From Clostridia bacterium (lineage in GTDB: Bacteria; Bacillota; Clostridia; Oscillospirales; CAG-272): a stretch of DNA of 64,000 nt. The stretch is taken from contig JAFTRA010000003.1 of the NCBI GenBank assembly GCA_017462485.1, positions 859-64,858 on the forward strand, written 5' to 3'. The notes beneath the pieces are model-generated. The model had not been told where the DNA came from and made no database searches. It saw only the letters and a program-made list of their open reading frames with translations. Below, one piece after another: positions 2,833 through 61,489 of the stretch (its first letter is position 1; each line of letters begins with the position of its first letter). Both the position numbers and the translations under genes were made by a program.

Positions 2833-2967
2833 TTACGGATTAAGGTCAAGCTCCCAATTTCCGTCATTCTCATCGTAAGGATTTGTTGTAGTACCCGGTG
2901 AGGTTGTAATAACGTCTTTTAAAGCAACTTCTATTACTTCAATTTCCGGATTTTTATATTTTTTCAT
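2833..2967 (-). CDS. 44-aa peptide MKKYKNPEIEVIEVALKDVITTSPGTTTNPYDENDGNWELDLNP with RiPP-like YxxP leader
   Basis: GGAGG RBS directly after the stop of the 2300-aa gene (TAAGGAGGTAGTAAAGATG). 29/44 identical to the peptide at 35891-36025, with 7 synonymous codon differences. Confidence 0.88.
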   Translation of the reverse strand: MKKYKNPEIEVIEVALKDVITTSPGTTTNPYDENDGNWELDLNP

Positions 2968-2980
2968 CTTTACTACCTCC

Positions 2981-8900: not shown

Positions 8901-9883
8901 TCTGTTTTATTTTTAACTACCCACTCGTAAAGCCCAGGCAAATTGTTTGGATAGTAGTCGGTCGTTGTCTGGATATCGCCCATAACCGCAAAGGAATAAG
9001 CTGACGTAAAGCCGTAGGATGCTCTTATTGCTGCCATCTCAGCCTCGGTAAGCCAGGTCTTGCTGTAAATAAGGTCGTTTCCGTTTCCGCTCTCGTCCTT
9101 GATATCCTTGCCGATATCACTTGAGTCAATATCGTAGTAGCAAATAAGATTATCATTCACGGGAATGTTGTTCTCAAGCTTGAGCACGTCTTCAGCGGTC
9201 ATTCCCATACCAAGCGAACAGTCACCGCTTATTTCAGAGGCGCTTCTTACGTCGGAATAAACGGTTACGTCACCGATACCGCCCTTGAAATAATTCGGAT
9301 TCATATGCCCGTTATCACCGCCTAGCGCCATAGGCATCTCGAGTATGTCGGGAGTAATCTCGGGGTAATAATACTTTTCTTCTTTGAGCTCTCCGTTTAC
9401 GTAACAGGAAACCACACCGTTATCACCGTCATAAACCAAAGCAAGATGCGACCATTCGTCAGTGGGAATAGCCGCGTTCTCAAACGTTATATCGTAAACG
9501 TTTGAGATTGAATCGCTCCACACTATTCTTGGAACAGCGCCGGTAAGTATCTCATAGTTTAAGTAAGCCATTCCGTAAGAGGATGAAGTCCAGAAGTTTC
9601 CGTAAAGAGTTCCTACCTTTTCGCTCGCCACGGACTCGGGAATATACACCCATGCCTCAAGCGTTACAGGCATAACCGATAAATCATCGGCCATCTGATA
9701 GCTGTCCGTTGCGTACGGTGAGTCTTTACCGTTGTAGATATCCTCTTCAACAGCGCCTCCAATGGTAAGTCCGCCGTGCTCATCATCAGCCGCCAAGGCG
9801 GGTATTACCAGGATAGCGACAAGCAAGCAAATCACAGCCGTAACAACGGTTATTACTTTCCATTTTTTCAAATGTTTTTTCAT
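2981..9883 (-). CDS. Giant secreted modular protein: LamG-like + calcineurin-like metallophosphoesterase + GLUG-like + ~300-aa repeats + conserved C-terminal domain
   Basis: N-terminal signal peptide. LamG-like motifs (TLEAWVY, WSHLALVYD, YVNGE); phosphoesterase motifs (GDIQ, LGD, RGNHD, NVH, SGH); GEGTEANPYKI. Repeats start T(E/P)YG(T/N)I. C-terminus homologous to that of 27667..35877. Confidence 0.9.
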   Translation of the reverse strand: MKKHLKKWKVITVVTAVICLLVAILVIPALAADDEHGGLTIGGAVEEDIYNGKDSPYATDSYQMADDLSVMPVTLEAWVYIPESVASEKVGTLYGNFWTSSSYGMAYLNYEILTGAVPRIVWSDSISNVYDITFENAAIPTDEWSHLALVYDGDNGVVSCYVNGELKEEKYYYPEITPDILEMPMALGGDNGHMNPNYFKGGIGDVTVYSDVRSASEISGDCSLGMGMTAEDVLKLENNIPVNDNLICYYDIDSSDIGKDIKDESGNGNDLIYSKTWLTEAEMAAIRASYGFTSAYSFAVMGDIQTTTDYYPNNLPGLYEWVVKNKTDKNIQFAITLGDITNDNGRSRRYSKDSSGNYVVDANGTYTHWDIVYDAIKQLDGELPYALIRGNHDVYPDLTTNQRLEGFNTYFGRLENFTSQFTEENGGGRYGDGQYDDVNDVTDLVTGYSSSYANTFQTLTVGENEVQYLFVNLDWIIKDDVVTWANKVIAAHPNHKVIINVHGYMNGDGTTLDPGDPTPNSTYNGDELWESIVSKHSNIKMVLSGHIAHDRIIVNQVENYNDGETSNTVTEMLINPQGFDAQLGGCSMIAMFYFDESGEKLAVEWYSATKDRYFKTINQFTLNLNSDSEKRVTPVWDGATATKPEGEGTEANPYKIANAENLYWISKNITEGSASFTGVYFEQTANIDLGGKDMTSIGTYYVSSKNMAAFGGVYDGRDFKITNGTITTANSERRFNWSEGYGLFGVIYGATIKNVILDDVQIIGKGVTGGIVGRAAAPTVTDTEFYGFNTVFGCEIKDSVKIVTLMTDGEYSAPSVFDDEYMAGRVGSVCGMAHATLIKSCTSAAEIYLSENFTLAGGIVGTAGLNSSVEYCGFSGKIGLKENNTLQNGYIGGLVGAVSPNMNTVDALGNKLGVSGTLYIKNSYSDAELDVSGENMYLGGIAGFLGSLSDVGNDSIEHPYLVENCYSLSSVSANSSVSLAGIVADKTAGEKELYVSGAYSTADVTSGTLEESALDAYVAALTSEIANVKQSGQQRIWLVGSGAPGAAGTDGLKYFDTQGSVYYLYSSDAWSAVRNIDITETTLETEYGTIDSKYATSTMVVFLYDKSTDTYSCIDGSNSIFDVLETARLNTQGSDHEAKAVIYFRADANFDDNFTNISYITGTILFDLNGKTLYQAKENVGLFSGHAKARDKNWNKSTVIVENGNIVLNTAGLFHEIGASGGKAGQQYEVNTTDTSYKTGDFIFNNVNISLAEGAKFTSLMGSYKDHSIIVTRNAKMGLNVTFDDNCVIDITNAPSGFVLFDACDTSISGMISNSVYATNSIVNVTVGACEIKADSSFVWHKVADNGSSVVYTKNSSEEFMTLTVPSTFTPDTSATFIGEYDYVYGLKKLSEADGKAIYTLGGMDTPYGNIPSGNEDYAFLTYVANADGTYTFRKGFNAFADALADAGSATKSVAGKKCVIYMTKDAGSGTANGSGNCGFNIGTIIIDLGGHVLTQENSEPLIRAHAKYDNGIATSNPGEFYLPGYYEIINGDIILTTNALFYIGTEGSGYNNHTGPYPKQVYWTLDGVDISVQDKDEYITNVFTAFRTCTNLTSTKDIIFNLTVKDNCTLDITGAKKELTLFDANDANRAEDNLNARVNITVDGLEVTANDESFIWADVNEDNGSSVAFTNKSAVTVTISSNTYTYEQLYTPYGNISPTYAAYKFVVFKYANGVYTCVYGNDDFANAVAADKVGARIYCQDPGTKAVVYMRGDYTSSATVTGNLCLMQGEMIIDLGGHTFTQTTGAIFKAYSKCGTHSASSLGKDVGHTATYYVTNGDIVLSNDSLFYVGMEGVNNYAKSECHKALNWTLDRIDISLASGATLTSLFTNFKDNSGYAPEGYNENTPGRDMTFNLIIKDTCTVDISNATKKVTLFNANDTTTKGIVSGKAYCVTNSKVNITVEGCKIITGSASFNLTAVADNGSSVLFGKSEGENYMQLVISKTAAESLDTTKIFKTADGTELVLVKVDETAENAIYRLRQKAAASIDFTPKMSITLDRDLVMNVYIPAEILLKFTFNGEEYANLEEISSNLTTVNGKKYYLMTVALPAAEAAKEIKLIATVSVGAGTATGTFTFSIPKYAEKVINNSESETEIQLVKDVLSYVRAAYIYFKTVDAGAIAKIDAIIGENYDASNAPAFNGSSTAPKTGLESVTLVLGATPATRFYVSGEAASYEFYLGNMKLDTLAGTDSNGSYIDIDSYAYAMCGTITYYIDGVLSGSYHVNSYYEFAKTQNNPGLVTLVERFAKYCESAEAYRAEVTK

Positions 9884-26583: not shown

Positions 26584-27483
26584 TTATTTGATCTTTTTTC
26601 GATATTCGCTCGGAGACGTAGAAAACGTGTTGTTGAAAATTCTGTTAAAGCCCGATATTTCACTGTAACCAACCTCAAGTGCTATTTGGGCTACGGTCAT
26701 TTCGGTATTTTGCAAAAGATACTCCGCCCAAGACATTCTGGTTTTATTTATGTAATTTTTGGGAGAAAGACCTGTGTGCTTTACAAAAAGCCGTCTGAGC
26801 GTAGAAACACTGATTTTGCATAAATCCGCAAGCGATTCCTCTTTAAGCATATCCGAGTTTGAAAGATGCGCATTTATCATATCTACCGCAGGAAGTATCC
26901 TTCTGTATTTATCCCTTTTCGGATCTACCGACTTGCTTAAAATACCGTTAGTCCTCATATACCTGGCACACGATATAATAAATCTTCCTATGGAAAAAGC
27001 AAGTGATATGTCTGTAAATTCATCGTTCGTATCTCCCTGCATGATAATTTCCTTTACAAAAGCAGTAAGCTCCGGATTTTCCATGGGCGAGAAAACTCCG
27101 CTGAAGGGTATATCTATATTCGCAGCCGATATGGCCTTATCCGGATCTAACATTCCCGCAAGCTGCATAAGCCTCACGGGATCGAAAAATACCTGCTTCC
27201 ATCTCGCCGGTGCGCTGCTGTACGATCGAGCATAATGGGGAACGTAACGGCAGATAAAGACTATATCTCCTTTCTCGAAGTTATAAAGCCTATCATCGAT
27301 CTGCATATTTCCTCTGCCCTCAATGCACACGCCAAGCTCATACATATCATGGTAATGAAGAAAAGTAATCGGTTTTTGTGGGGTATAAGGCTTCGCGTCG
27401 GACACCCAATACGGCTCTTCGTGCGACTCTCTTATATTTCTATACCGAATAGGAAGACGCTTCTTTTGAATTGTGTATTCCAT
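26584..27483 (-). CDS. AraC family regulator, divergent from the giant protein gene
   Basis: HYHDMYELG cupin; IALEVGYSEISGFNRIF HTH. Confidence 0.92.
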   Translation of the reverse strand: MEYTIQKKRLPIRYRNIRESHEEPYWVSDAKPYTPQKPITFLHYHDMYELGVCIEGRGNMQIDDRLYNFEKGDIVFICRYVPHYARSYSSAPARWKQVFFDPVRLMQLAGMLDPDKAISAANIDIPFSGVFSPMENPELTAFVKEIIMQGDTNDEFTDISLAFSIGRFIISCARYMRTNGILSKSVDPKRDKYRRILPAVDMINAHLSNSDMLKEESLADLCKISVSTLRRLFVKHTGLSPKNYINKTRMSWAEYLLQNTEMTVAQIALEVGYSEISGFNRIFNNTFSTSPSEYRKKIK

Positions 27484-27666: not shown

Positions 27667-30600
27667 ATGAAAAAGAAGCTAACGAAAATATCTCTCTTGC
27701 TCATCGCTGTTTTGTTGATCGTGTTATCAGCTACCGCAGTGCTGGTTTCCGCAGAGGATTCCATTGAGCTCAAGGGCGATATGGAAGCCATCACTGCAGC
27801 GTTTGACGAAAAATATCTTGTTCAAAGCACCGTAAGGGGCGAGGACAAGTACGTCGGCGACTATCAGTACACTATGTACTATGACAAAGAGAAGGGACCG
27901 ATAACAGTAGATTATAACGGTACACCGATAATAATTTACACGGTCAACCATCCGAAAATCGAAAGAGTTGGAACAGACGAGGACGTTGAAATCATTCAGT
28001 CGATGCTGAATAACGGCTACGTCGTCGTTGTTCTCGACTATCTGGAGAGCGATAAAGCGGTAAGCCCCGCAATAGATTACTCCACTCAGCTTTTCAGAGC
28101 TAACCTTGTTTACGGTTGGGGTGAGATTTTCACGAATAAAACGCTTTTCCCTGAAGGAAATTATCGCGAAAACTTCCTGGTTCCCTCGGGATGCAACGTT
28201 CTTCTTAATCAGGTGTTCTGGGAAACCGACAAGCACTCGGTTAACGGAACGTTTAACAAGATAGTTGAAAACTGGAACTCGGACTTCCGCGCGACCAAAG
28301 GTAATAACCTCGTCAGATGGATGCACACCGATGGCACGAGAAAAGCCGTGCAAAACGATTTTGACGGAAACGAACCTCTTTGGTACAACGCAAACGGTAA
28401 GGTTGACGCAAACGGCGAATATACTTACATAAAGTTCACCAAAGCCGAGGTTGTAACCGATTGCATAAATCCCGACGGCACTCCGCTCAATATGGATCTT
28501 CATATGCATATCGTTTATCATACGAATCCGGAAAATCCCGTTCCTGTTATGGCTCTCGCCAACTCATCCGGATATCTTACCACGTGCATGACGAATGAGG
28601 ATGATCTCCGTCCTCACAGTAACGGATTCCTCTACGCCGGATACTCAACAGCGGTATACGATCATCTTTGGGAGCCTATGGGCGAGAACACGTCCTGGGG
28701 TTATTACGACGGAGCGAAGGGCGTAAGCAAGGACCATATGAATTACTCGCTTAATATCTATAACGACAAACTCGTTAATACCGCCGCTATGCGTTTTCTC
28801 CGTTATACCTCGCTTTCGGGAGGCGATACCTATAATTTCAATACAGAAAAAATAGGTGTTTACGGAAATTCCAAGGGCGGTTGGTTTAACTTCCTTGGCG
28901 AAGCGATAATCCAGACACCTCTCGTTAAAAACACAGACGCATACACAAGTATAGATGAGCTTGAGGATGCGATATCCTTTGAGCTTGAGAAGCTTCCCGC
29001 CGACCGTATGTATGACGGTCATCACGGAGAAACACGTTACAGCGTAGGCGCAGAAGCTGTAAGCGGTGACGGAGTTACCTTTGCAGCAGGAGAAAAGCAG
29101 CCTTGGCTTACGTATAATGGCAAGGAAATAATCTCGGGATGCCAGGTAACGATACCCGAAAACGGTGGCTCAGAGGAAGATATAACCGAGGGCCATATGC
29201 CTATATTCGTAACGAGCAATCTCGCAGACTATCTGGACGCTCATTACGGAGTTACCCTCAGAATATACAACGTATGCCGCGAGTTAAATCTACCTCTTCT
29301 TCATTTTGAGCTTCCTATAGGACATACGCTCCCAAGCGGTCAGGATATTAATCATAACGTTGATTCCTACGACGCTTTGATGAAATTTGTAAACTATTAT
29401 TTGAAAAACGCGCCCATTAACGTTGCTTACGTCACCCCGATGAACAATGCGGGAAAAGTAAGAGTGACGGACAAAATAACCGTAGCCTTTACAGGCCAGG
29501 CAGAGCTTGAGGACGTTCAGAAAATAACCGTTACGGCAGGTGAAGATACAGTTTCCGGAAGCTGGGAGAAGTCGTTCGGCGGAGTCGTATGGACGTTCAC
29601 TCCCGACGCGCTCTCCGGTAATACCAAATACACATTGACCGTACCGGCAGGCTTCTCGGGAACCAATAATCAACCTACTAAAACCGTTTATGAAGCCTCG
29701 TTTATCACCGAATTCGACGTTGCCGCAGAACCTACTTCCGTATCCGAAAACGTTTACACGTTCACTGCTCCGTCGTTCACCTCCGGTAACAGCTTTGTAT
29801 TCCGCTTCAACGTTACTAACGATGCGGCGAACGTTGCCGAGCTTTATGAAAACGATGCGAACGGAGATCTGCTCGGAAGCGTTAACCTTCGCGGTGCTGG
29901 AAGCTATGAAATTGATATAACCGATTACGTTGCGGCTAACTCCGGAAAGGACATAACTCTCCTTCTTAAAGGAAAGAACTCGGCAGGTAGTGTTCCGCTT
30001 GATAATGACACGCTTACCGGTGAGACGCTCAGCGAAGATATATCGGTAAACACAACCAACTCAACAGTAATTACGGCATCCTCGATAAACGGTGTTACAG
30101 CGCTTGAAGCTAAGGTCACTAAGCCATATAATTATAACTACTCGAAATACTACAACAATCCTACGAGGATACTCAAATACAACAACGTTACACAAAACTT
30201 GTTCTCCAAGGACGACCTCGGTAGGCTCTATACCTTCTCAATAGACGTATACGACACTGTTGACAGAGTATTCCAGATAAGACTCCGTAATATGACGGAT
30301 GAGACAAATCACGAAACTATAGACTACGACTGGGTATTCCGCACGTATAAGACAACCGCAAATCAGTGGTCTACTTATACGTTCACCTACAGAGTTTACG
30401 AATCCGATTACGGTATTATTTCTCAAAACAAGAACCAGTACCTTGAACTTTTCGTAGCCCCCGACGGTGATTTGGCTTCCTCCATCTATTTCAAAAATCT
30501 CGTGATTTCCGAAGTTATCACCGACATAGACGTTTCTGGAGCTGCAATAGCGGAGAAGCAGACCCTCGGTGGAGCTTATACTCCCGCTGTATCAGCTTCC

Positions 30601-33600
30601 CCCTTTGCTATCTACAACGGCGAGACTCTCATAGATGAATATGACAGCTTTACGGCGGCTCTTGCGGCTTACACCTCTGGCTACTCATTAAAGCTTCAAT
30701 CGGATTACACGTTTACCGACTCTGACGTAAGCGACCAGCTTAAGAGCTTCACAGAGTTTAATTTTGACCTCGGCTCGTACACTCTTACGTTAGATAACAC
30801 TAAAAATTCTCCTCTTTGGATTAAAGCAACGAACAAAAACAAGCTGCAACTCAATCTCTCGGGCGGCGTTATTCTCGTTGGAGATACACCTATCATTTCA
30901 TATGAGTCTTCCATCTCGGCAGGCTCGGGCAAGAGCGTAGAATTAAATCTTGACGGTGTTAAGATAGGTCTTGCCGATAATTCGGGCGCTATCAACATTC
31001 TTTCGGGCGTGACGCTTCCCGCAGGACTCAAGCTTGACGCGCACGTATCTCTCACAAACTGCGAGCTTGACCTTCCCGACGACAGAAGGGCGCGCGACGC
31101 CGCAACTATTCTTCCTACCTCTTCCACGGCGGGACTTGATTTAAGCTACACGGTTAAGGGCGGAAGCATATATCTCACCTCGGAGAGATGGATAAGCATT
31201 CTTAATAACGTTTCCGACGCCGAGTTCCTTGCGGACACGAACGGAAATTACACAAAGCTTCTTCTTCCCTCCTCTTACACCTACGAATTGAAGTGCTCCT
31301 GCTTCACCGACAGGGGCTACGCATCCTACTCCAAACAGAGCGAGGAGAGCAATATTACCACCTACAACCTCACCATTCCCGAAAACTCAACCAAATACGG
31401 CATTATACCCGAAAGCATTGCAAGCGATTCAAGCTACGTCTTCATTCTCTTCAAGGACGGAAGCTACGTTTCGGCTCATAAGAACCTTAAGTCCGTTACT
31501 CAAGCTGCGGAAAAGCTTATGGCGAGCGCCGGCGAGGATGAGGTTGCAGAAATACTGTTGACGCAAAATCACAAGGCAACCAATTCGGGCGCAAGCGACG
31601 TAGCTTACGGAACCGCGCGCGGAACTATCGTATTTGACCTTGACGGACACACACTCACCAGAGGCGGTAACGCTTTGGCAGCAGGAGAAATAAATTCCTC
31701 AACTACAACCTATTATAAAACCTCTATCGTTTTCAAAAACGGAAGAATTGAAACCGCAAAGGGTCTTATGTTCGTTACACACTACCGTTTCTCGACAAGT
31801 GGCGTAAAGACCTACGATTTCACCTTTGATAACGTCACCTTTGGTTATGCGGAGGGCGCTACGTCTCTTAACAACGCATTCTGGAACGTATGGAGCAACA
31901 GCCACTTTGCAACAATCTCCAAAACGAATATAACTCTTCGAAACTGCACGTTTGACTTTAAAACAAACTCTCCCACAAGTGTTTCGGCTACAACTCTCTT
32001 CAAATTTAACGAAAAAGGCGAGCGAGCTGACATAAACCTTGTTATCGAAGGCGGTGAGATACTCGGAAACGGCGCAAACATAACGTTTGCAAACCCCGAT
32101 GCGTACGATACGCTCACTCTTGCTCCTAACGAAAATGGTGAGTATATCAAATTCATCCCGTCAAGTGACAGCGCAACCGCTCCTAACCTCGATAACTTCA
32201 GCTTTGCTGACGGAAAGAAGAGAAGCTTTGCGCTTGAAGGCGGCGAATACGTTATGAAGGAAGAAACTGTTTACGGCGAGATTCCCGCGGAATACCCCGC
32301 AAGCACTCACCCCTTCGTAATACTCGTTTACAACAGTGAGACCGGAAAATATGAATTCAACCAACTCACTGTTACGGTAAACAACGAAAGCAAGACCATT
32401 ATTCCTGCATACGATACGTGGAAGGCAGTCACTACGGATATACAGTATTATGCAAACGATCCCTCGTCGGACGTTGTTCTTCTCGTAAGAGAAGATTACA
32501 CAAACACGAATGATGGTTGCGCTGACGGTACGTCGTTCCACTCCGTAGGCGGTAAGCTCACGGTTGACCTTGGCGGACATACCTTCACACGAGGAGGAAA
32601 AACCGTATTCAGCTTTGCTGCGTTTAACACAAGTTTTAACGACGCGAGCGGTCAGATAATCATCAAAAACGGTAAGCTTTTAAGTGACGGTGGCGCCATC
32701 TTCGTTGGACACAAAAACGCAAAATTGACTGAAGGCTCAACAAAAACCTGGAACATAACCTTAGAGGACGTTACCTTAGGCTTTGCTGACGGAGCGACAA
32801 AGGGCGACTATATGTTCTGGGTAGAGTGGTCCTCCTCAACCCAGAACAACACTACTGTACAATTCAACGTAACGCTTAACAACTGCACGCTTGATCTTAA
32901 AACGAACAACCCCGGCAGCACACCGACTCTGTTCCATTTAAAGAAAACCTCCGCTTCGGTGTATACCCACGACTTCGAAATCAAGGGCGGTACTATAATC
33001 AGCGATAATCTTGCCGGAATTAAGCTTTTCAACAAAGAATCAAGTGACACAATCACCTACACAAAGAATTCCAACGGTGAATACGTAAAGCTTATCTCTA
33101 CGACCACCGAGAAGGATGCATCTCACTATAACGGCTCACTTTCCACCGATGAAGGCGACAAATACTTTGTTGAAGTATCCGACGACGGCGTAAACTCGGT
33201 TTACGAGCTTAAGAGCCTTGCGACCGACTACGGAACAGCTTCCAACACAGCAAAATATCTTTCCGAGCTTGATTATCCCTTCTTCATCTTCCAAGGCGGC
33301 GAATTCGTTACGGCGGCTGAAAGTTGGGCAAAGGCGATGAGCGAAGCCGTTAAGCTCGTTGACGAGGAATCCGAAAGCGAGCTTTCGGTGGAAATAGTTA
33401 TGCGTCGCGATTATGACGTATACAAGGCGGTAGACGCCGCTAACGGCAGAGTTACCTTCAATAAGGCGCGCGGAAAAGTAATCTTCGACCTCTGTGGATA
33501 TACTATCACTACGGTTGACGGATACCTTATCGACGTATATATCAACAATTCCGCCTCCTCAGTGCTCGGTTTCAAATCACACCTTACCGTAAGGAACGGA

Positions 33601-35877
33601 ACAATCCTTAACCTTAGAAAGAAGCTCTGCTCTATAGCGTTCGGTCACGAGGGCGAGTCACCCGACGGACAGAAAAAGAACCTCTCGTTCACCTTCGAGA
33701 ACGTTACCTTTAAGGCAACCGAATACTCGGTAATAAGAGATTGGGGACACTCGTATAAAACCGGACTTAAGCTTGATTTCGTATTTGACGGATGCACCTA
33801 CGATTTCAGTGATTCTGTCAAGGGTCTTACTATGCTTTACTTCGAATCCAATCAAACCTCCGTTAACACAGATGCGGAATTTATCGGCGGCAAGATAATA
33901 GCATCGAACGCTAATAATTATACCGTGGTTAATTACGGCGCGGACGACAGCATAAGATTTACCAAAGATTCCGACGGAAATCATATTACCATAGTTCAGC
34001 CCACAAAAAACACAGCTCCCACGTTCACTCTCAAAAACGAAAAGGGAAAGGATATAACTATCACAACGCTTGGTACGGAAGGATATTACACCGTATATGT
34101 ATTCAAAGATCCTGTTGAAACGGCTTACGGAGACATTCCTTTTGACTATTCAAACGAGGAAACCTATCCCTTTGTTGTATTCGGAGAAGACGGTAGCTTC
34201 ATCGGTGCTTATGCGACACTTCTCGGCACAGGCGCTATGGATGCCGCAAAGACGTATCTTACGAAAAACGTATGGAACGGCACGTCATACGGAGCTTCGG
34301 AGAAATCCGCAGTAATTCTTATGAGAAGAAATTACACAATGCAATCGTCTGACACCTACTCCGATTACTCCTATATTGAGGGCTCTGTAACGCTAGATCT
34401 TGGAATGCTCACTCTGACGTCAAGAAGCGATGACTATATGTTCAGCGCCAAGGCAAAATCATGCCCCACCGATGTTTCGGGCGATAGCTTCGAGCTCTTC
34501 CCCAGTGTATTTACTGTAAAGAACGGCAATCTCGTATCGGTTGATAAATCTATTCTCTCCCTCGGAACCGATGGCGCGGACGCCGATATCTCCGGAAAGA
34601 ACATGTTCTGGCAGTTTGAAAACGTGACCTTCTCTAACACGGGAACTGCGCAAAATCCAATAATTGATTGCTACCACAGCTCCACTTCTGCCGTAGTTCC
34701 GATCAACGTGAGCTTCGACGATTGCGTATTTGATTTAAGCAATATCACACAAACTACGAGACAGGTATTTAATATATACACGGGCACGGACGTTCAGCTT
34801 AATATAACCGTTTCCGGCGGCGAAATTATAGCTCCCGAAGATATAACTCTTCTTGACGTTTTATATTATAGCAGCTCGACGGGTTCCGATATTGAATTTA
34901 CACAGAATGAAAACGGATTTATAAAGATAATCACAGATTCGGTTTATTCAAATTCGGAGGAACTAAACACTTCTCTCGGAAACGCAAGCTTCGTCAAGAC
35001 CTCATCATCTGATGGAACTAACGTTTATTCACTTGTTCCTACATCGCTCACGAAATTCACGCCAAAAATGAGTATAACCTTAGATAGAAATCTCGTGATG
35101 AACGTGTATATTCCTGCGGAAGCGCTAGTTAAGTTTACATTCAACGGTCAAAACTATGAAAATCTTGATGAAATTGCAAAGAACAAAACAACCATTGACG
35201 GCAACGAATATTACCTTATGAAAGCAGAGCTTCCTGCTGCAGAGGCCGCGTCAACGGTTAAGCTTATAGCTACCGTTTCAGCCGGCGGTATCAGCGCAAA
35301 CGCAACCTTCTCATTCAGCATTCCAAAGTACGCTGAAAAGGTAATCGCAGGCTCGAACGAAACCGAAATCAAGCTTGTAAAGGACGTTCTTCTCTACGTC
35401 AAATCCGCATACGTCTATTTTGGAACTAATGACCCCGAAGCAATCGCAAAAATCAACACGCTCCTCGGTGATTATACGGCAAAGCCCATAGTAGAGGGTA
35501 GCTCGGAGAAGCCCACGGCAGCTCTTGCCTCGGTTGCCTTCGTTCTTAAAGGAACTCCGTCCATGAGATTCTATCTCGCGGATGGCAGAGATGCCAGTGA
35601 ATACAAGTTCTATATTGACACGAAAGAGGTCAAAACGAAAGTATCCGACGACGGAACATACGTTGATATAGACGTATATGCTTACGCGCTTTGCGAAACG
35701 GTCACTTACACCGTAGGCGAGGAGTCCGGCAGCTTCCATATAAACGCATATTATTCCTACGTAAGCGGTGCGGAATACACCGAAGCTGACAAGACAGAGC
35801 TCATATCACTCACCGAGTGCTTCTGGAATTATCTCCAGAGCGCAAGAGCTTACAGAAGCTCGGTAACCGAAGGATAA
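27667..35877 (+). CDS. Giant secreted modular protein: alpha/beta-hydrolase-like head + Ig-like (Big_5) + ~300-aa repeats + conserved C-terminal domain
   Basis: Signal peptide; nucleophile elbow IGVYGNSKGG; VTP...ITVAF...WTFTP..L...TKYTLTV Ig-like motif. Repeats start TxYGxxx. FTPKMSITLDR C-terminal domain shared with 2981..9883. Confidence 0.9.
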   Translation: MKKKLTKISLLLIAVLLIVLSATAVLVSAEDSIELKGDMEAITAAFDEKYLVQSTVRGEDKYVGDYQYTMYYDKEKGPITVDYNGTPIIIYTVNHPKIERVGTDEDVEIIQSMLNNGYVVVVLDYLESDKAVSPAIDYSTQLFRANLVYGWGEIFTNKTLFPEGNYRENFLVPSGCNVLLNQVFWETDKHSVNGTFNKIVENWNSDFRATKGNNLVRWMHTDGTRKAVQNDFDGNEPLWYNANGKVDANGEYTYIKFTKAEVVTDCINPDGTPLNMDLHMHIVYHTNPENPVPVMALANSSGYLTTCMTNEDDLRPHSNGFLYAGYSTAVYDHLWEPMGENTSWGYYDGAKGVSKDHMNYSLNIYNDKLVNTAAMRFLRYTSLSGGDTYNFNTEKIGVYGNSKGGWFNFLGEAIIQTPLVKNTDAYTSIDELEDAISFELEKLPADRMYDGHHGETRYSVGAEAVSGDGVTFAAGEKQPWLTYNGKEIISGCQVTIPENGGSEEDITEGHMPIFVTSNLADYLDAHYGVTLRIYNVCRELNLPLLHFELPIGHTLPSGQDINHNVDSYDALMKFVNYYLKNAPINVAYVTPMNNAGKVRVTDKITVAFTGQAELEDVQKITVTAGEDTVSGSWEKSFGGVVWTFTPDALSGNTKYTLTVPAGFSGTNNQPTKTVYEASFITEFDVAAEPTSVSENVYTFTAPSFTSGNSFVFRFNVTNDAANVAELYENDANGDLLGSVNLRGAGSYEIDITDYVAANSGKDITLLLKGKNSAGSVPLDNDTLTGETLSEDISVNTTNSTVITASSINGVTALEAKVTKPYNYNYSKYYNNPTRILKYNNVTQNLFSKDDLGRLYTFSIDVYDTVDRVFQIRLRNMTDETNHETIDYDWVFRTYKTTANQWSTYTFTYRVYESDYGIISQNKNQYLELFVAPDGDLASSIYFKNLVISEVITDIDVSGAAIAEKQTLGGAYTPAVSASPFAIYNGETLIDEYDSFTAALAAYTSGYSLKLQSDYTFTDSDVSDQLKSFTEFNFDLGSYTLTLDNTKNSPLWIKATNKNKLQLNLSGGVILVGDTPIISYESSISAGSGKSVELNLDGVKIGLADNSGAINILSGVTLPAGLKLDAHVSLTNCELDLPDDRRARDAATILPTSSTAGLDLSYTVKGGSIYLTSERWISILNNVSDAEFLADTNGNYTKLLLPSSYTYELKCSCFTDRGYASYSKQSEESNITTYNLTIPENSTKYGIIPESIASDSSYVFILFKDGSYVSAHKNLKSVTQAAEKLMASAGEDEVAEILLTQNHKATNSGASDVAYGTARGTIVFDLDGHTLTRGGNALAAGEINSSTTTYYKTSIVFKNGRIETAKGLMFVTHYRFSTSGVKTYDFTFDNVTFGYAEGATSLNNAFWNVWSNSHFATISKTNITLRNCTFDFKTNSPTSVSATTLFKFNEKGERADINLVIEGGEILGNGANITFANPDAYDTLTLAPNENGEYIKFIPSSDSATAPNLDNFSFADGKKRSFALEGGEYVMKEETVYGEIPAEYPASTHPFVILVYNSETGKYEFNQLTVTVNNESKTIIPAYDTWKAVTTDIQYYANDPSSDVVLLVREDYTNTNDGCADGTSFHSVGGKLTVDLGGHTFTRGGKTVFSFAAFNTSFNDASGQIIIKNGKLLSDGGAIFVGHKNAKLTEGSTKTWNITLEDVTLGFADGATKGDYMFWVEWSSSTQNNTTVQFNVTLNNCTLDLKTNNPGSTPTLFHLKKTSASVYTHDFEIKGGTIISDNLAGIKLFNKESSDTITYTKNSNGEYVKLISTTTEKDASHYNGSLSTDEGDKYFVEVSDDGVNSVYELKSLATDYGTASNTAKYLSELDYPFFIFQGGEFVTAAESWAKAMSEAVKLVDEESESELSVEIVMRRDYDVYKAVDAANGRVTFNKARGKVIFDLCGYTITTVDGYLIDVYINNSASSVLGFKSHLTVRNGTILNLRKKLCSIAFGHEGESPDGQKKNLSFTFENVTFKATEYSVIRDWGHSYKTGLKLDFVFDGCTYDFSDSVKGLTMLYFESNQTSVNTDAEFIGGKIIASNANNYTVVNYGADDSIRFTKDSDGNHITIVQPTKNTAPTFTLKNEKGKDITITTLGTEGYYTVYVFKDPVETAYGDIPFDYSNEETYPFVVFGEDGSFIGAYATLLGTGAMDAAKTYLTKNVWNGTSYGASEKSAVILMRRNYTMQSSDTYSDYSYIEGSVTLDLGMLTLTSRSDDYMFSAKAKSCPTDVSGDSFELFPSVFTVKNGNLVSVDKSILSLGTDGADADISGKNMFWQFENVTFSNTGTAQNPIIDCYHSSTSAVVPINVSFDDCVFDLSNITQTTRQVFNIYTGTDVQLNITVSGGEIIAPEDITLLDVLYYSSSTGSDIEFTQNENGFIKIITDSVYSNSEELNTSLGNASFVKTSSSDGTNVYSLVPTSLTKFTPKMSITLDRNLVMNVYIPAEALVKFTFNGQNYENLDEIAKNKTTIDGNEYYLMKAELPAAEAASTVKLIATVSAGGISANATFSFSIPKYAEKVIAGSNETEIKLVKDVLLYVKSAYVYFGTNDPEAIAKINTLLGDYTAKPIVEGSSEKPTAALASVAFVLKGTPSMRFYLADGRDASEYKFYIDTKEVKTKVSDDGTYVDIDVYAYALCETVTYTVGEESGSFHINAYYSYVSGAEYTEADKTELISLTECFWNYLQSARAYRSSVTEG

Positions 35878-35890
35878 GGAGGTAGTAAAA

Positions 35891-36025
35891 ATGAAAAAGT
35901 ATATAAACCCCGAATTTGAAGTAATCGAAGTTGCTGCAAAAGACATTATTACAACCTCACCGGGTACTGAAACCTCAACGCAGGATAACAACGACGGCAT
36001 TTGGGATCTTGAATTTGATCTTTAA
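35891..36025 (+). CDS. 44-aa peptide MKKYINPEFEVIEVAAKDIITTSPGTETSTQDNNDGIWDLEFDL with RiPP-like YxxP leader
   Basis: TAAGGAGGTAGTAAAAATG junction with the giant gene. Homolog of 2833..2967. Confidence 0.88.
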   Translation: MKKYINPEFEVIEVAAKDIITTSPGTETSTQDNNDGIWDLEFDL

Positions 36026-36078
36026 ATTGCGTTAAATCCAAGCGACATAACGAAAGCTGCTTCATTTGAGTACGTACT

Positions 36079-36206: not shown

Positions 36207-36321
36207 TATATATGCTCGCCTTTGCGAACGTCACTTAAGTGCTTTTTCTTTATTAACTTTAATTACAGCGTTATCAACTTTAGTTACAACGTAGCAAAGC
36301 GTATATTCAGCGGCGCTATCA

Positions 36322-57879: not shown

Positions 57880-58017
57880 TCAACCGAGGGTAAGACCACC
57901 CGGCATTGGAATCATCGGGGAGTCCGTTTCGTCACTTCCCTCATCTGCACCGCTGGTGCGTATGATGTCCAGGTTGTTGATTTTTATAAGGTCGCATATC
58001 GGAGCTTCATATTTCAT
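57880..58017 (-). CDS. 45-aa peptide MKYEAPICDLIKINNLDIIRTSGADEGSDETDSPMIPMPGGLTLG, same YxxP...DIIxTS leader family
   Basis: Strong AAAGGAGG RBS, own promoter upstream, terminator downstream, leader motif shared with the two 44-aa peptides. Confidence 0.82.
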   Translation of the reverse strand: MKYEAPICDLIKINNLDIIRTSGADEGSDETDSPMIPMPGGLTLG

Positions 58018-58306: not shown

Positions 58307-61252
58307 TTAATCTGCCTGATCTCCGTACAATGCCTTAAGCTCTATGGCAATCTTGGGAACCTGAAGATCGACGTTGTGCTGTTTTTGAATAACCATATCC
58401 TCAAATCCCTCGCGCTTAACGATAACATTGGTATCAATACTGTTTATCATGCTAAAGTTGTTTCCCTCGCCCGAGCTTGCATATATATCCGAATACAGCG
58501 CCGTATCGTAGATAAGCGTTATCGTTTCGGTTATTCTGTACGGATATTTTACAGTACTTGCCGAAATATTATTCGGATCGTAGTTCTTAATAAAGATGGT
58601 GTTTATAAGCTCATTGTAAACATACGTATTCTGCAGCGCTCCGCTTCTGAAGTTCTCAATCTTGAAGTTATAGGGTATGCCGCACTCATATCCGAAATTC
58701 CAAAGCCATGCTGCTCCGGGCTGGTCCTCCTCGGTGCTTGGCTTGCTGGCAATCCAACCACCGTTGCTGGTCGAGAAGCCGGCGTCATAAATTTCCACTC
58801 TGGAATTAAGGTTTTCGGGATCAAATTCGGTACCGCCGCTGGGTCTGTTCGTCTTATAGTCCACAACTGCCGCCGCATAGCAATTCTTCAGATATACGTC
58901 TCCGCGGAAGGGCGCGCCGTAGTCTCCTCTTGAATAAATGAAGCTTGCTCCCGTAATCATCGTAACGTTTTCAGCGTAAAGATATCCGCCTCCAACGACG
59001 TTAAACGAGTGACCGATAATGGTATCTATAAGAGTTGCATTCCAGAAGCCTCTGTGCGCGTCGAAACGGTTGATCTCGCAGTTATAGAAGTTCATATTCT
59101 TCGAGCCGTTACTGGACATAATACCCCAGTGCTTCTGATCGCCAAGACCGTAGTCCTCGTATCTCGTGCCGGTTACGTCCTTGAACGTTTCGGTGTTTAT
59201 ACGGGTTACCTCAAGCGAGTCTGCGCCTTGACGCTGAACTACGTCCTTCAAGGTAACGTTAGAGCTATACTCTATAATAAGGTCGTAAGAACCCATAGCT
59301 ACGGGGTTGGGAACCTCGCCTCCGGTAGAAGCTGTTGCGGCCTTATCCTCGTAGTAGGTGGTATGACCGGTAAGAATCGAATCCTTTGCGAGAACGTTAT
59401 GCGAATCGTAAATATAGAAGAATCCGTAGTAGGGATAGCTTTCTCTTCTCGAGCCATAACCGGGATGGAGAGTAGAGTTAAGCGTAGAATTCTGATCGTA
59501 AGCGGGATCCATCGAATCACCAAGCGTGGGCTCTTCAATCATTCTATGCACGATATTGGATATAGTAACCTCACTGCGCTTGATTACGAATCCGCGCTTA
59601 TACTGCTGATATCTACCCATATAATTCGTAGCCGCGGTGGTTACGCAGCACTTATTTTCGAACGTGCCGTTGGTTACCGTGATGGGTTTATCGTCAACTC
59701 TGCATATCTGTATTTTAGTAATCTTATCGAAGTCGTATGCTACGGGAGTATCCTCGGCAACCGTTCCGTCTACGTCGACTATGAAGATATCCTGTCTGTC
59801 TTGACCCTTATCCTCGTTAGCTCCCCAACGCTTAAAGTCCTTATGCTCGTCATTATAAATTCTTACAAGGCTCTTTGCCTCAAGATATGGCGCAAGCCAC
59901 TCAAACTTAGTCGTACCAAATGGAATGGTTACGTCCTTAAATCTATCGTCCTCATCAGCGTTATCTATTATAACGTCGTCGTAATCTCTCTTAATGTGGA
60001 AAATTCCGATATTTCTTATCGTTTCACCGAGAGAGTTCTTTGCGGTGTGGATACCCTTATCGTCAATCGTAAAGGTAGCGCCGTTAAAGTCGGTATCGGT
60101 CTGAACGGGGATAACGTAGGTCAAGCCCTCGGCGCTTATTATGTAGTTCGCGCCTGCCTCACCCATGACCTTCTGACCGCCCTTGTTTGCGTGAGAGTGA
60201 GCGTTGTAGATAGCCTTATAGTCGCACTTATCGTCACTTCCGTTTGCTCCGAAGTCCTCGTACTTAACTATACTTACGAAGTCCTCGTACGTAAAGCTTT
60301 TAGCAATCGAGACGTTTCCTTTTTTGGTAAGAATAGCGCTGTTCATAAATTTCTGAAATGCAGTGTTAAAGGAATTTGCGTAAGCGCACTCAATAACAAG
60401 GTCGCCGTCCTCAACATATACGTAGAATCCGGGATCCTCTTCGTAAGCGAGATAATTGCCGTTAGCATCGGTCTTTCTCTCACACTTACGGATTACTATA
60501 CAATGCTCATATGAATCCTTGTCCTTGATATTACCTGTATTAAGCCAATATCCCGATCTCTCGTAAAGGTTGTTTCTGAAATTAACTATGTTCGAATAGG
60601 TGAATGCGGTATCAAGGTCGGTAACAATAGTAAAATCCTTAATATCAACCGAGTCAATCTTGACGGATTCAACCATATAGCTTGTAAGCTGCTCCTTGAA
60701 AATCTCTTCAGGCTGAACTGCAAGCTGCTCCAAGGACTTCGTCTTATCGGTGATACCGAGAGTGTACTTGGTGAACCACTCGAACTTTTCCTTAGTCAAT
60801 TTCGGAGTACCGCCGGCAACAACAAGTCTTTCTCCCGCAACCTTGTAGGTATAACCCTTTTCGCCAAGGTACTTATCGAAAACGTATGCGTCGTCTCCTC
60901 TATGCTGCGCATTAGCGCCTATAATCAATTCTCTGTCAGTAACCAAGGAAGGATCTTCGTCACTTATAGCGTCATTGACCTCTATACCGAGCTTTCGCAA
61001 GGTCTTAACGAAGCTTTCAGCCGCCTTCTTTCCTTCTCCCTCTGAAGCAGCCGTGTAAACGACGTTGAACGTAGCCTTACCCTCGTAAATGAGAACGTAG
61101 CCCTCGAGATCTCCGTAAGGATTTTCATCCTCCCCATTGTTAAGGAAAGGAATATCAATAGGCAAATTCTCTAAAAACGAGCACGAAGCGAGAGTGAACG
61201 CAAGGCAAACCATCATCGCAACGAGTAAAGCTCTGATTAGATTTTTCTTCAT
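58307..61252 (-). CDS. Large lipoprotein with a beta-helix (pectate-lyase-3-like) carbohydrate-active region
   Basis: Lipobox LASC; YEDFGANG..D.KAI..AH beta-helix cap; NRFDAHRG. GGAGG RBS before the ATG at 61252. Confidence 0.78.
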   Translation of the reverse strand: MKKNLIRALLVAMMVCLAFTLASCSFLENLPIDIPFLNNGEDENPYGDLEGYVLIYEGKATFNVVYTAASEGEGKKAAESFVKTLRKLGIEVNDAISDEDPSLVTDRELIIGANAQHRGDDAYVFDKYLGEKGYTYKVAGERLVVAGGTPKLTKEKFEWFTKYTLGITDKTKSLEQLAVQPEEIFKEQLTSYMVESVKIDSVDIKDFTIVTDLDTAFTYSNIVNFRNNLYERSGYWLNTGNIKDKDSYEHCIVIRKCERKTDANGNYLAYEEDPGFYVYVEDGDLVIECAYANSFNTAFQKFMNSAILTKKGNVSIAKSFTYEDFVSIVKYEDFGANGSDDKCDYKAIYNAHSHANKGGQKVMGEAGANYIISAEGLTYVIPVQTDTDFNGATFTIDDKGIHTAKNSLGETIRNIGIFHIKRDYDDVIIDNADEDDRFKDVTIPFGTTKFEWLAPYLEAKSLVRIYNDEHKDFKRWGANEDKGQDRQDIFIVDVDGTVAEDTPVAYDFDKITKIQICRVDDKPITVTNGTFENKCCVTTAATNYMGRYQQYKRGFVIKRSEVTISNIVHRMIEEPTLGDSMDPAYDQNSTLNSTLHPGYGSRRESYPYYGFFYIYDSHNVLAKDSILTGHTTYYEDKAATASTGGEVPNPVAMGSYDLIIEYSSNVTLKDVVQRQGADSLEVTRINTETFKDVTGTRYEDYGLGDQKHWGIMSSNGSKNMNFYNCEINRFDAHRGFWNATLIDTIIGHSFNVVGGGYLYAENVTMITGASFIYSRGDYGAPFRGDVYLKNCYAAAVVDYKTNRPSGGTEFDPENLNSRVEIYDAGFSTSNGGWIASKPSTEEDQPGAAWLWNFGYECGIPYNFKIENFRSGALQNTYVYNELINTIFIKNYDPNNISASTVKYPYRITETITLIYDTALYSDIYASSGEGNNFSMINSIDTNVIVKREGFEDMVIQKQHNVDLQVPKIAIELKALYGDQAD

Positions 61253-61489
61253 ATTTTCCTCCATTTTTTTGAGCGTGGCTCATATTTATACGCATACATT
61301 ATACCAAACCCAAAAATGCCAGTCAAGTAAGTATTTGTAAATTTGGTAATACTTACAAAATATTTTATATATTATTGTGGTAATTCACCAAATGTGATTT
61401 TTCTAATAAAGAACAAGAGCCCCTCGGCATAGTTATCGCCATAAGAGCTCTTGCTTGATTTATTAAAATAGGTGCTGACCGCCTTAATT

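What the first reader, a model, noticed from the sequence alone, without database searches (positions are those of the whole stretch)
35056..36025. Giant secreted protein plus adjacent 44-aa YxxP-leader peptide: a repeated two-gene module (second copy at 2833-3800)
Seen in sequence: both giant genes (27667-35877 and 2981-9883) end in a homologous ~270-aa domain (FTPKMSITLDR.LVMNVYIP...FSIPKYAEKVI...LVKDVL.YV..AY.YF...YAYA.C.T.TY...Y..SA.AYR). Both are followed by the same 13-nt junction, TAA-GGAGGTAGTAAA(A/G)-ATG, and an unannotated 44-aa ORF. The peptides are 29/44 identical with 7 synonymous third-position changes, consistent with selection on the protein. They have a conserved N-half (MKKYxNPExEVIEVAxKD(I/V)ITTS) and an acidic C-half with DxNDGxW(D/E)L. 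Established: YxxP is the leader motif bound by RRE/PqqD-like domains in lasso and related RiPP precursors. Inference: the C-terminal domain and the peptide travel as one cassette attached to different enzyme heads. The peptide may be a processed partner that anchors, sorts or chaperones the giant protein, since no LPxTG, SLH, dockerin or TM anchor is visible. No maturation enzymes lie in this window, so any processing would be in trans.
Basis: partly seen in the sequence, partly recalled or inferred. Interest (0 to 1): 0.85.

Follow-up and report, generated by a model that had tools for sequence, protein, structure and literature searches.

The report
Docking peptide paired with giant exoenzymes
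Each giant secreted enzyme gene here is followed by a tiny conserved gene for a leader-bearing peptide that is predicted to dock onto the enzyme's tail domain, a repeated module in uncultured gut Clostridia that ties a newly described peptide-processing system to surface enzymes.

Summary
Two giant secreted proteins (27667-35877 +, 2981-9883 -) end in a homologous 275-aa domain. Each is followed after 13 nt by a 44-aa ORF.

The ORF is a real gene:
- 134 unnamed homologue clusters exist.
- Across 69 copies pS is 0.71 against pN 0.20, in this frame only.

The pairing is near-constant. In 10 gut MAGs, 62 of 65 informative peptide copies lie 2-67 nt (one at 228 nt) downstream of an ORF ending in that domain.

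The peptide has two parts.
- **Leader (residues 1-23).** It is a YxxP leader of the type described in 2026 for LPP peptides (PMC13381572). The genome has one discrete PqqD/RRE plus an archaeal-type signal-peptidase-like operon, and an unlinked kinase-like gene and NTP_transf_5 gene. Leader and RRE-peptidase co-occur in 34 of 37 peptide-positive genomes, against 42 of 214 peptide-negative ones.
- **Core (residues 22-41).** It is predicted to dock on the conserved face of the C-terminal domain, with ipSAE 0.80 against a best control of 0.00.

Not shown: processing, modification, binding and the biological role. My best guess for the role is tethering or sorting of glycan-degrading exoenzymes. 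It is not a lasso peptide. I rate it a new variant of a known kind, of high interest.

The parts
27667..35877 (+). Giant secreted protein A, 2736 aa. It has an N-terminal signal-peptide-like segment, weak esterase (BD-FAE) and Big_5 hits, and repeated about 350-aa modules.
35050..35874 (+). C-terminal 275-aa domain of A. No Pfam family covers it. Layout: beta-sandwich, helices, second beta-sandwich, long C-terminal helix.
   Evidence: AF2 pLDDT 94.7, pTM 0.89. Family of 3191 representatives at E<=1e-3. No convincing known fold.
35878..35890 (+). 13-nt junction holding the Shine-Dalgarno GGAGG. The peptide is in a different frame from the giant gene.
   Evidence: The same junction lies in copy B. 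Similar GGAGG-bearing gaps are seen in MAG loci.
35891..35959 (+). Peptide A residues 1-23: YxxP leader ending in D-I-I-T-T-S. This is the proposed RRE handle and cleavage or modification site.
   Evidence: Invariant Y4, P7, D18, T22 and S23. A leader-only match is found in 37 of 251 genomes of the order. pN is 0.056 for residues 18-28.
35960..36025 (+). Peptide A residues 24-44 plus stop: conserved acidic core with the D-G-x-W motif, predicted to dock on the C-terminal domain.
   Evidence: Invariant G25, T26, T28, D35, G36 and W38. The predicted interface covers peptide residues 22-41.
2981..9883 (-). Giant secreted protein B, 2300 aa, with Laminin_G_3 and Metallophos heads.
2984..3808 (-). 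C-terminal domain of B, 54% identical to that of A.
2833..2967 (-). Peptide B, 44 aa, 13 nt after the stop codon of B.
57880..58017 (-). Third leader-type small ORF, 45 aa. It has the same leader pattern but a different acidic core. It lies 290 nt downstream of a 985-aa secreted protein.
58307..61264 (-). 985-aa secreted protein upstream of the third leader peptide. No Pfam family.
26584..27483 (-). AraC-family regulator, divergent from giant A.
   Evidence: Pfam HTH_18 79.6 bits, AraC_binding 38.9 bits

Best explanation
The 44-aa ORFs are real small proteins with two functional halves.

Residues 1-23 form a YxxP leader. The genome's single discrete RRE (a PqqD-family protein) would bind it and present it to the adjacent cytoplasmic, archaeal-type signal-peptidase-I-like enzyme. 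That is LPP-type processing. A P-loop kinase-like protein and an NTP_transf_5 enzyme, both encoded elsewhere in the genome, may add Ser phosphorylation or further modification.

The remaining, conserved acidic core then binds the conserved face of the two-beta-sandwich C-terminal domain of the secreted enzyme encoded just upstream. The model shows beta-strand addition to the domain's first strand, with the Trp-bearing tail packed among conserved tyrosines.

Because this domain ends hundreds of exoenzymes with different heads and no other anchor, I propose that the peptide is an adaptor. It would tether or sort these enzymes at the cell envelope.

Shown: the gene is real, the cassette is real, and the machinery is present and co-occurs with the leader. 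Predicted: binding. Inferred: processing, modification, export and the tethering role.
For: **Real gene.** 134 homologue clusters. Eleven invariant positions among 36 sequences. pS 0.71 against pN 0.20 in this frame only.

**Cassette.**
- Four full copies in this genome.
- Of 74 peptide hits in 72 MAG loci, 62 lie directly downstream of an ORF ending in the domain, 9 are at a contig edge and 3 are not adjacent.
- About 124 of the 150 best domain matches are at the extreme C-terminus (hand count).
- Heads are diverse. Of 120 listed proteins, 28 carry Metallophos and 23 carry PF03629, which one source names sialate O-acetylesterase (hand count).

**Leader and machinery.**
- RRE P0124 scores 61 bits on PF05402. 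It overlaps the start of SpI-like P0125, which has invariant S27, H65 and D82.
- 34 of 37 leader-positive genomes have both, against 42 of 214 leader-negative genomes with the peptidase (hand tally).
- In 5 genomes the leader lies within about 2.5 kb of the RRE. The neighbours there are a kinase-like gene, NTP_transf_5, an ABC exporter and sometimes a radical-SAM gene.
- 5 of 5 MAGs with full modules have one orthologous RRE-SpI operon.
- The LPP mechanism was shown experimentally in Paenibacillus (PMC13381572, sections 6-8, 11 and 12 read).

**Binding.**
- ipSAE in three runs was 0.84, 0.01 and 0.80, median 0.80, with a best control of 0.00. That mark was reached by 58 of 80 solved complexes and 2 of 110 mismatched pairs.
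- The runs agree in at least 20% of their contacts, and the partner's pLDDT is at least 32.
- The interface uses peptide residues 22-41 and leaves the leader free.
- 12 of 29 domain positions conserved at 90% or more lie in the 36-residue interface, against 3.8 expected (p 4.6e-5).
Against: - One of the three complex runs scored 0.01, and the peptide's own pLDDT is low at 32-53.
- Mutual-information covariation between peptide and domain columns did not pick out interface columns.
- Paralogous domains without an adjacent peptide keep 8 of 12 conserved interface residues, against 11 of 17 conserved non-interface residues. Much interface conservation may therefore be structural.
- The leader differs from the published LPP motif beyond YxxP and the final Ser.
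- The kinase-like gene, the NTP-transferase and any exporter are unlinked in this genome.
- The peptidase scores 37 bits on TIGR02228, below its cut-off of 51.85.
- 42 genomes have the peptidase without a detected leader, and 3 have a leader without the peptidase.
- A Sec-exported giant and a cytoplasmically processed peptide would have to meet outside the cell. No exporter has been assigned.
- There is no expression or mass-spectrometry evidence.
Confidence: 0.55

Rival explanations
1. The peptide is a free LPP-type RiPP, such as a signal, antimicrobial or matrix component. It is merely co-transcribed with exoenzyme genes and does not bind the C-terminal domain.
For: The leader family occurs with many unrelated cores across the order. 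LPP-like clusters with an exporter exist in relatives. Covariation and paralogue tests gave no independent support for binding.
Against: The core is the most conserved part (pN 0.056-0.15), although there are up to 23 copies per genome. That is unlike the hypervariable cores usual for multi-copy RiPP precursors, a generalisation recalled from knowledge and from no call. The adjacency to one specific domain is near-invariant (62 of 65 informative copies). The complex prediction passes its controls.
Confidence: 0.2
2. The peptide acts as a trans chaperone or cap, processed or not. It completes or shields the edge strand of the C-terminal domain to aid folding or prevent aggregation, and it has no tethering role.
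For: The predicted contacts are beta-strand addition to the domain's first strand, residues 4-12. Translational coupling would give a matched supply.
Against: This does not explain why the peptide needs a conserved RRE-type leader and a dedicated peptidase. It also does not explain how a cytoplasmic peptide would meet a Sec-exported domain. Peptide-less paralogues of the domain exist.
Confidence: 0.17
3. A polymorphic toxin and immunity pair: the C-terminal domain is a toxin and the small ORF is its immunity protein.
For: The layout resembles WapA- or CdiA-type loci as recalled: a large secreted protein whose C-terminal domain is bound by the product of the next small gene.
Against: Here the C-terminus is the conserved part and the heads vary, which is the reverse of polymorphic toxins. 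The domain is two beta-sandwiches with helices and shows no enzyme-like match. The small ORF carries an RRE-type leader.
Confidence: 0.02
4. A lasso peptide precursor.
For: The peptide has a YxxP leader and a Gly at position 25 followed by Asp/Glu seven to eight residues later. The best PDB sequence matches of the RRE are the lasso B1 proteins TbiB1 and TfuB1, at E 0.02-0.04.
Against: There is no Transglut_core3 match in a 98% complete genome. The only Asn_synthase match is a 22-bit hit to model positions 15-66 of 354. The RRE's partner is a serine signal-peptidase-like enzyme.
Confidence: 0.02
5. A spurious ORF or purely regulatory sequence.
For: It is unannotated in the sources. No names are attached and no RNA run is listed.
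Against: pS far exceeds pN in this frame only. A Shine-Dalgarno sequence sits at a fixed distance. There are 134 homologue clusters.
Confidence: 0.01

Closest known systems
LPP (linear polyphosphorylated peptide) system of Paenibacillus alginolyticus: LppA, LppB (RRE), LppS (SpI-like), LppK and LppN (PMC13381572)
   Same: [quoted passage not shown] The precursor leader has YxxP and a conserved Ser about 19-20 residues after the Tyr. A kinase-like P-loop protein, NTP_transf_5 and an ABC exporter lie beside the pair in relatives. Polysaccharide genes are nearby.
   Different: - Precursors are not in the cluster. They are scattered, 7 in this genome and up to 23 in a MAG.
- Each precursor of the full type is coupled to the 3' end of a giant exoenzyme gene.
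- The core is conserved rather than variable and is predicted to bind that enzyme's C-terminal domain.
- The leader motif differs after YxxP.
- In this genome the four enzyme genes are unlinked.
- The lineage is uncultured gut Clostridia, which the paper's main text does not mention (0 hits for 'Clostridi', 'Oscillospir' and 'secreted'). Its supplements could not be seen.
Lasso peptide B1 (RRE) and leader recognition (TbiB1 5v1u, TfuB1 6jx3)
   Same: It uses a YxxP leader bound by a small PqqD-fold protein. These are the best PDB sequence matches of P0124, though weak at E 0.02-0.04.
   Different: No B2 cysteine peptidase or cyclase was found. The peptidase partner is of the serine SpI type.
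Cohesin-dockerin and other C-terminal sorting modules such as SLH and LPXTG/sortase (functional analogy only, recalled)
   Same: One conserved C-terminal module follows many different secreted enzyme heads. A short acidic partner segment carries an Asp/Asn/Gly-rich motif.
   Different: There is no sequence or fold match. The partner is a separate ribosomal peptide with a RiPP-type leader, not a domain of a scaffold.
SipW with TasA/TapA of Bacillus subtilis (mentioned in PMC13381572)
   Same: [quoted passage not shown]
   Different: SipW acts on Sec signal peptides without an RRE. Here the substrate leader has no hydrophobic core and an RRE is the neighbour.

Membership tests
LPP-type RiPP system (PMC13381572) | SpI-like (archaeal-type signal peptidase I) leader peptidase with catalytic Ser/His/Asp | tested here: met
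   P0125 matches TIGR02228 at 37.3 bits, below the cut-off of 51.85. S27, H65 and D82 are invariant in a 16-sequence alignment. They correspond in order to the LppS S29/H68/D93 reported in the paper.
LPP-type RiPP system (PMC13381572) | Discrete RRE (PqqD family) encoded beside the peptidase | tested here: met
   P0124 scores 61.1 bits on PF05402. Its stop overlaps the start of P0125. The same pair is found in 5 of 5 MAGs.
LPP-type RiPP system (PMC13381572) | Precursor leader motif YxxPxVLxHQxIxFETxxS | tested here: inconclusive
   YxxP and the terminal Ser are present and invariant. The residues between differ and the spacing is one residue longer (by eye).
LPP-type RiPP system (PMC13381572) | HprK-like kinase | tested here: inconclusive
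   The 237-aa P-loop protein at C43:13067-13780 is 30-42% identical to the proteins beside RRE-SpI in 5 other genomes. Those give only weak NCBIfam hits to ScmC (2e-6) and HprK_rel_A (0.005). It has no Pfam family.
LPP-type RiPP system (PMC13381572) | NTP_transf_5 nucleotidyltransferase | tested here: met
   PF14907 scores 144.5 bits at C18:128631-129338, unlinked and inside a polysaccharide-type gene group.
LPP-type RiPP system (PMC13381572) | Genes and precursor clustered in one locus with an MsbA-like exporter | tested here: not met
   In this genome the RRE-SpI pair (C14), kinase-like gene (C43), NTP-transferase (C18) and precursors (C37, C47, C26, C40, C15) are on different contigs. Clustering is seen in relatives.
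LPP-type RiPP system (PMC13381572) | Polyphosphorylated Ser in the core; leader cleaved by the SpI-like enzyme with the RRE | not testable with these tools
   This needs mass spectrometry and a cleavage assay.
Lasso peptides | Asn-synthetase-like macrolactam cyclase | tested here: not met
   PF00733 gives only 22.3 bits over model positions 15-66 of 354, in a 339-aa frame. The genome is 98% complete.
Lasso peptides | Transglutaminase-like leader peptidase (B or B2) | tested here: not met
   PF13471 has no match in the genome.
Polymorphic toxin and immunity modules | Variable C-terminal toxin domain behind a conserved delivery region | tested here: not met
   The C-terminal domain is the conserved element and the heads vary.
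Known cell-wall anchors (SLH, dockerin, LPXTG, cell-wall-binding repeats) | Pfam family match in the giant proteins | tested here: not met
   No such family reaches E <= 0.01 in P0003 or P0004.

The most novel reading that the evidence does not exclude
The leaderless, phospho- or glycopolymer-modified core is exported and fixed to the cell envelope. There it serves as a docking peg. Each giant glycan-degrading exoenzyme carries a cognate receptor domain at its C-terminus and brings its own peg gene. This would be a previously unknown, RiPP-derived surface-display system in Gram-positive gut bacteria, analogous to cohesin-dockerin. It would also be the first biological role for LPP-type peptides.
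Probability: 0.25. Interest if true: 0.9.

Novelty: new variant of a known kind. Interest (0 to 1): 0.8.

Why it matters
LPP-type peptides were described only in 2026, and that paper states that their biological roles remain unknown.

Here the same kind of leader and processing pair is tied to a concrete partner. That partner is an uncharacterised C-terminal domain family with 3191 representatives. It ends giant secreted enzymes whose heads include sialate O-acetylesterase-type, metallophosphatase and glycoside-hydrolase families, in uncultured herbivore-gut Clostridia.

If the peptide docks these enzymes, three things would follow:
- It would explain how such bacteria hold huge exoenzymes without known anchors.
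- It would give a testable function to a new RiPP class.
- It would supply a small peptide and domain pair of possible use as a tagging tool.

It also shows that RiPP-style precursors can be scattered in dozens of copies away from their enzymes. Cluster-based genome mining would be expected to miss such precursors.

Tried and rejected
**Fold of the C-terminal domain.** Foldseek against the PDB gave only TM about 0.2 to tandem Ig-like proteins such as IsdB/IsdH, myomesin and Fc. VIA-align wide gave a best Z of 7.0 (VirB9 C-terminal domain, CBM56, CsgC), which the tool itself rates as background level. No fold assignment was made. The ESM Atlas returned only 'hypothetical protein' clusters.

**Covariation.** I computed normalised mutual information between 9 variable peptide positions and 247 variable domain columns over 45 pairs. 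Interface columns were 1-3 of each top 15, close to the 1.5 expected. Shared descent dominates the signal, so the test is uninformative.

**Peptide-less paralogues.** The A3-like domains on C2, C21 and C26, and the internal one on C40, keep 8, 8, 4 and 8 of 12 conserved interface residues. They keep 11, 11, 9 and 10 of 17 conserved non-interface residues. There is no selective loss, so this gives no support.

**Expression.** No RNA holder was listed for window 34500-36300. Twenty DNA holders from 10 studies of animal gut or faeces and other metagenomes were listed.

**Fused forms.** A search of longer proteins with the peptide profile gave 6 hits among 8000 scored candidates. Of the 3 fetched, 2 are run-on gene calls. 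One, P0372, is an LRR_5 protein with the core in frame at its C-terminus. It comes from a single contig and is too thin to build on.

**Narrow domain profile.** The profile of the four copies in this genome (A2) found the domain in only 1 of 251 genomes of the order sample, namely this genome. The broader profile A3 detected weak relatives upstream of leader peptides in 4 of 29 loci.

**Other.**
- The terminator scan found a 13-bp hairpin at 36084-36116, called for the minus strand only. No terminator was found after peptide B.
- Literature searches found no paper other than PMC13381572 on RRE plus SpI-like systems, and none linking such peptides to giant secreted proteins. This holds only for the library searched.

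Full report
**1. Observation**

- giant A at 27667-35877 (+), 2736 aa
- giant B at 2981-9883 (-), 2300 aa
- two 44-aa ORFs at 35891-36025 (+) and 2833-2967 (-)

Both stop codons are followed by 13 nt containing GGAGG and then ATG. The two junctions differ in one base. The peptide is in another frame than the giant gene.

The giants align over about 1300 aa at 29% identity. Their last roughly 275 aa are 54% identical. The peptides are 29/43 identical.

Pfam finds only Big_5 and a weak esterase hit in A, and Laminin_G_3 plus Metallophos in B. Nothing is found in the C-terminal domain or the peptides, and no known wall anchor is found.

**2. The small ORF is a gene**

A search of 5.8 billion proteins found 134 clusters of 42-65 aa, all unnamed and without Pfam. 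In 36 aligned members, Y4, P7, D18, T22, S23, G25, T26, T28, D35, G36 and W38 are invariant.

Over 69 copies (2346 pairs), mean pS is 0.71 and pN 0.20 in the annotated frame. The two other frames give pS 0.22/0.16 and pN 0.32/0.34.

Constraint is strongest at residues 18-28 (pN 0.056), then 29-40 (0.15). Residues 9-17 are loose (0.38).

**3. The cassette**

The genome is 2.23 Mb in 49 contigs and 98% complete. It holds four full copies of domain plus peptide: two in the window, one on C47 and one on C26.

It also holds three further small ORFs with the same leader but other acidic cores:
- window 57880-58017
- C40, 12 nt after a 1904-aa protein
- C15, ahead of a 439-aa secreted protein

A scan of species-representative genomes gave 72 loci in 10 MAGs from goat colon, sheep rectum and other gut samples. 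Copy numbers were 23, 17, 10, 10, 4, 2, 2, 2, 1 and 1 per MAG (hand count).

Of 74 peptide hits in those loci:
- 62 lie downstream of an ORF that ends in the domain, on the same strand. Gaps are 2-67 nt with a mode of 13; one fragment sits at 228 nt.
- 9 sit at a contig or locus edge and say nothing.
- 3 are not so placed. One has no domain nearby. Two lie upstream of a protein with an internal copy.

The domain family has 3191 representatives at E <= 1e-3 and 380 at <= 1e-30 among 1.84 billion. In about 124 of the best 150 the match ends within six residues of the protein's end (hand count).

Heads vary. Of the 120 proteins listed:
- 28 carry PF00149
- 23 carry PF03629, which one source names sialate O-acetylesterase
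- 11 carry PF00754
- 5 carry the PF21307/PF14498/PF22124 set, which one source names a glycoside hydrolase N-terminal domain
- 4 carry PF13088
- 3 carry PF03009
- 33 carry none

These are hand counts. Family names other than those shown or given by sources are recalled.

**4. The leader and its machinery**

The genome has no Transglut_core3 match and only a 52-residue Asn_synthase fragment match. A lasso pathway is therefore not found.

PF05402 finds a stand-alone 103-aa PqqD protein on C14. Its gene overlaps the start of a 154-aa protein related to archaeal-type signal peptidase I. S27, H65 and D82 are invariant among 16 homologues.

This is the pair that defines the LPP family of Popov et al. 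(PMC13381572; I read sections 6-8, 11 and 12 and ran one term search). In that system:
- LppB (the RRE) binds a YxxP leader.
- LppB presents it to the SpI-like LppS, which cuts after T-1.
- A HprK-like kinase polyphosphorylates Ser3 of the core.
- NTP_transf_5 and an exporter complete the cluster.
- The biological role is stated to be unknown.

In a sample of 251 genomes of the same order, counts were:

| Query | Genomes with a hit |
|---|---|
| Peptide profile (mostly positions 1-23 only) | 37 |
| Peptidase | 76 |
| RRE | 82 |

By my tally, 34 of the 37 leader-positive genomes have both enzymes. The three exceptions are 100, 87 and 85% complete. Among the 214 leader-negative genomes, 42 have the peptidase. 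Related genomes are not independent, so I give no test. The positives do fall in 13 families.

In five genomes a leader ORF lies within about 2.5 kb of the RRE. The neighbours there are:
- a 238-257-aa protein with weak ScmC/HprK-related hits
- NTP_transf_5
- an ABC exporter
- in two genomes, a radical-SAM/SPASM maturase
- large secreted proteins

This genome has homologues of the 238-257-aa protein and of NTP_transf_5:
- The first is on C43, 30-42% identical, with a P-loop. It lies beside a Wzz/ParA-type protein and an LRR_5 surface protein.
- The second is on C18, at 144.5 bits, in a group of ORFs that, by eye only and with no family search, look like sugar-nucleotide and polysaccharide-export genes.

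All 5 MAGs tested that carry full modules have exactly one orthologous peptidase, 54-64% identical. The RRE gene is next to it in all 5. Of the 3 loci whose ORFs I listed, 2 begin or end in an ORF that by eye resembles the enolase-like neighbour in this genome. DUF6514 is nearby in 3 of 5.

In the wider sample, 11 of 17 recognisable leader ORFs lie 30 nt or less downstream of a long same-strand ORF (hand count).

**5. The C-terminal domain and the predicted complex**

With a 45-sequence alignment, AlphaFold2 gives pLDDT 94.7 and pTM 0.89. The layout is a beta-sandwich (6-89), helices (91-139), a second sandwich (159-229) and a long helix (248-273). No solved structure matches convincingly.

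The complex tool, given domain and peptide alignments, scored 0.84, 0.01 and 0.80 (median 0.80) against 0.00 for the best of three controls. That mark was reached by 58 of 80 solved complexes and 2 of 110 mismatched pairs. The runs agree in at least 20% of contacts, and the peptide's pLDDT is 32-53. The tool notes that its counts hold only roughly with user alignments, and that a pass supports binding but does not show it.

The interface uses peptide residues 22-41. On the domain it uses residues 4-12, 18, 20, 49, 81-89, 94, 97-98, 103, 106, 109-110, 210-212, 265, 268-269 and 272-273. The leader is left free.

Twelve of the 29 domain positions conserved at 90% or more lie in these 36 residues, against 3.8 expected (p 4.6e-5). 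Column entropy is 1.18 bits in the interface against 1.88 outside it.

Two further tests gave nothing:
- Covariation is swamped by shared descent.
- Peptide-less paralogues keep interface residues as well as other conserved residues. Part of that conservation may therefore be structural.

**6. Reading**

The peptide is bipartite. Its N-half is an RRE handle with a strictly conserved D-[IV]-I-T-T-S junction. Its C-half is a conserved acidic ligand.

I take it as an LPP-like precursor made from many scattered genes and served by one RRE-peptidase operon. Its core is predicted to bind the tail domain of the enzyme encoded just upstream.

Three observations make tethering or sorting my preferred role, but this is inference:
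- The tail domain ends many exoenzymes that lack any known anchor.
- Polysaccharide-type genes lie close to the kinase-like and NTP-transferase genes here.
- The paper reports LPP clusters inside capsule loci.

Open problems are the exporter, the cut site, the modification, and where the peptide and the Sec-exported protein meet.

**7. Novelty and verdict**

The processing pair and leader type are known since 2026. The rest I found in no paper of the library searched (supplements not seen):
- scattered multi-copy precursors
- their fixed coupling to one uncharacterised C-terminal domain of giant exoenzymes
- the conserved core
- the predicted docking

I rate it a new variant of a known kind, interest 0.8. 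The bolder reading, a RiPP-derived surface-docking system, I put at about 0.25.

Noticed in passing
window 57880-58017 (-) and 58307-61264 (-): A third leader-type small ORF (45 aa) has the same YxxP and D-I-I-x-T-S pattern but a different acidic core. It lies 290 nt downstream of a 985-aa secreted protein with no Pfam family and no A3-type domain detected.
   Followed up: partly
L052 (G000:C40) 1580-7294 (+) and 7306-7419 (+): A 1904-aa LVIVD-repeat protein has an internal copy of the domain (E 7e-21). It is followed 12 nt after its stop by a 37-aa leader-type ORF with another core ending in D-D-W-L-E-I.
   Followed up: partly
L053 (G000:C15) 3106-3261 (-) and 1753-3072 (-): A 51-aa leader-type ORF lies upstream of a 439-aa secreted protein rather than downstream.
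   Followed up: no
G000 contigs C2:20814-25679, C26:102447-107255 and 107761-111933, C21:3146-5701: Large secreted proteins carry a divergent copy of the C-terminal domain but have no adjacent leader peptide. They may use peptides made elsewhere, or none.
   Followed up: partly
P0372 (metagenome protein, 401 aa): An LRR_5 protein with a signal peptide ends in frame with the peptide's second half, from the variable strand through the core. It lacks the Met-Lys-Lys-Tyr start and YxxP. It is seen on one contig only. It may be a natural fusion or an assembly or frameshift artefact.
   Followed up: partly
L104, L114, L115, L123, L125 (MAG loci): In these proteins the domain is followed by a further 412-417 residues before the stop and the peptide gene. 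Two of them, L123 and L125, show a second partial domain match.
   Followed up: no
L098-L105, L112, L119, L121, L127 (MAGs RGIG2037 and JAZONS): A sub-family of the peptide appears to start 61-67 nt further upstream, at an ATG just after the Shine-Dalgarno sequence. This adds about 20 residues before the YxxP leader, and the usual Met is replaced by Val, Ala or Thr.
   Followed up: no
L002/L034 (G000:C14) and L140-L142: A DUF6514 gene lies on the opposite strand just beyond the RRE-peptidase operon here and in 3 of 5 MAGs. By eye, an enolase-like ORF lies just upstream in this genome and in 2 of the 3 MAG loci whose ORFs were listed.
   Followed up: partly
L003 (G000:C17) about 13373-14782 (-): A 469-aa protein has a weak N-terminal PqqD match (23.9 bits). 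By eye it resembles a radical-SAM peptide maturase of the SCIFF type. I did not locate its peptide.
   Followed up: no
window 36084-36116: A 13-bp GC-rich hairpin lies between peptide A and the convergent gene 36322-37104 (-). It is called as a terminator for the minus strand only, and may serve both directions.
   Followed up: no
window 26584-27483 (-): An AraC-family regulator (HTH_18 plus AraC_binding) is divergent from giant A. Similar-looking ORFs, judged by eye, lie upstream of the C47 and C40 giants but not of giant B or the C26 copy.
   Followed up: partly
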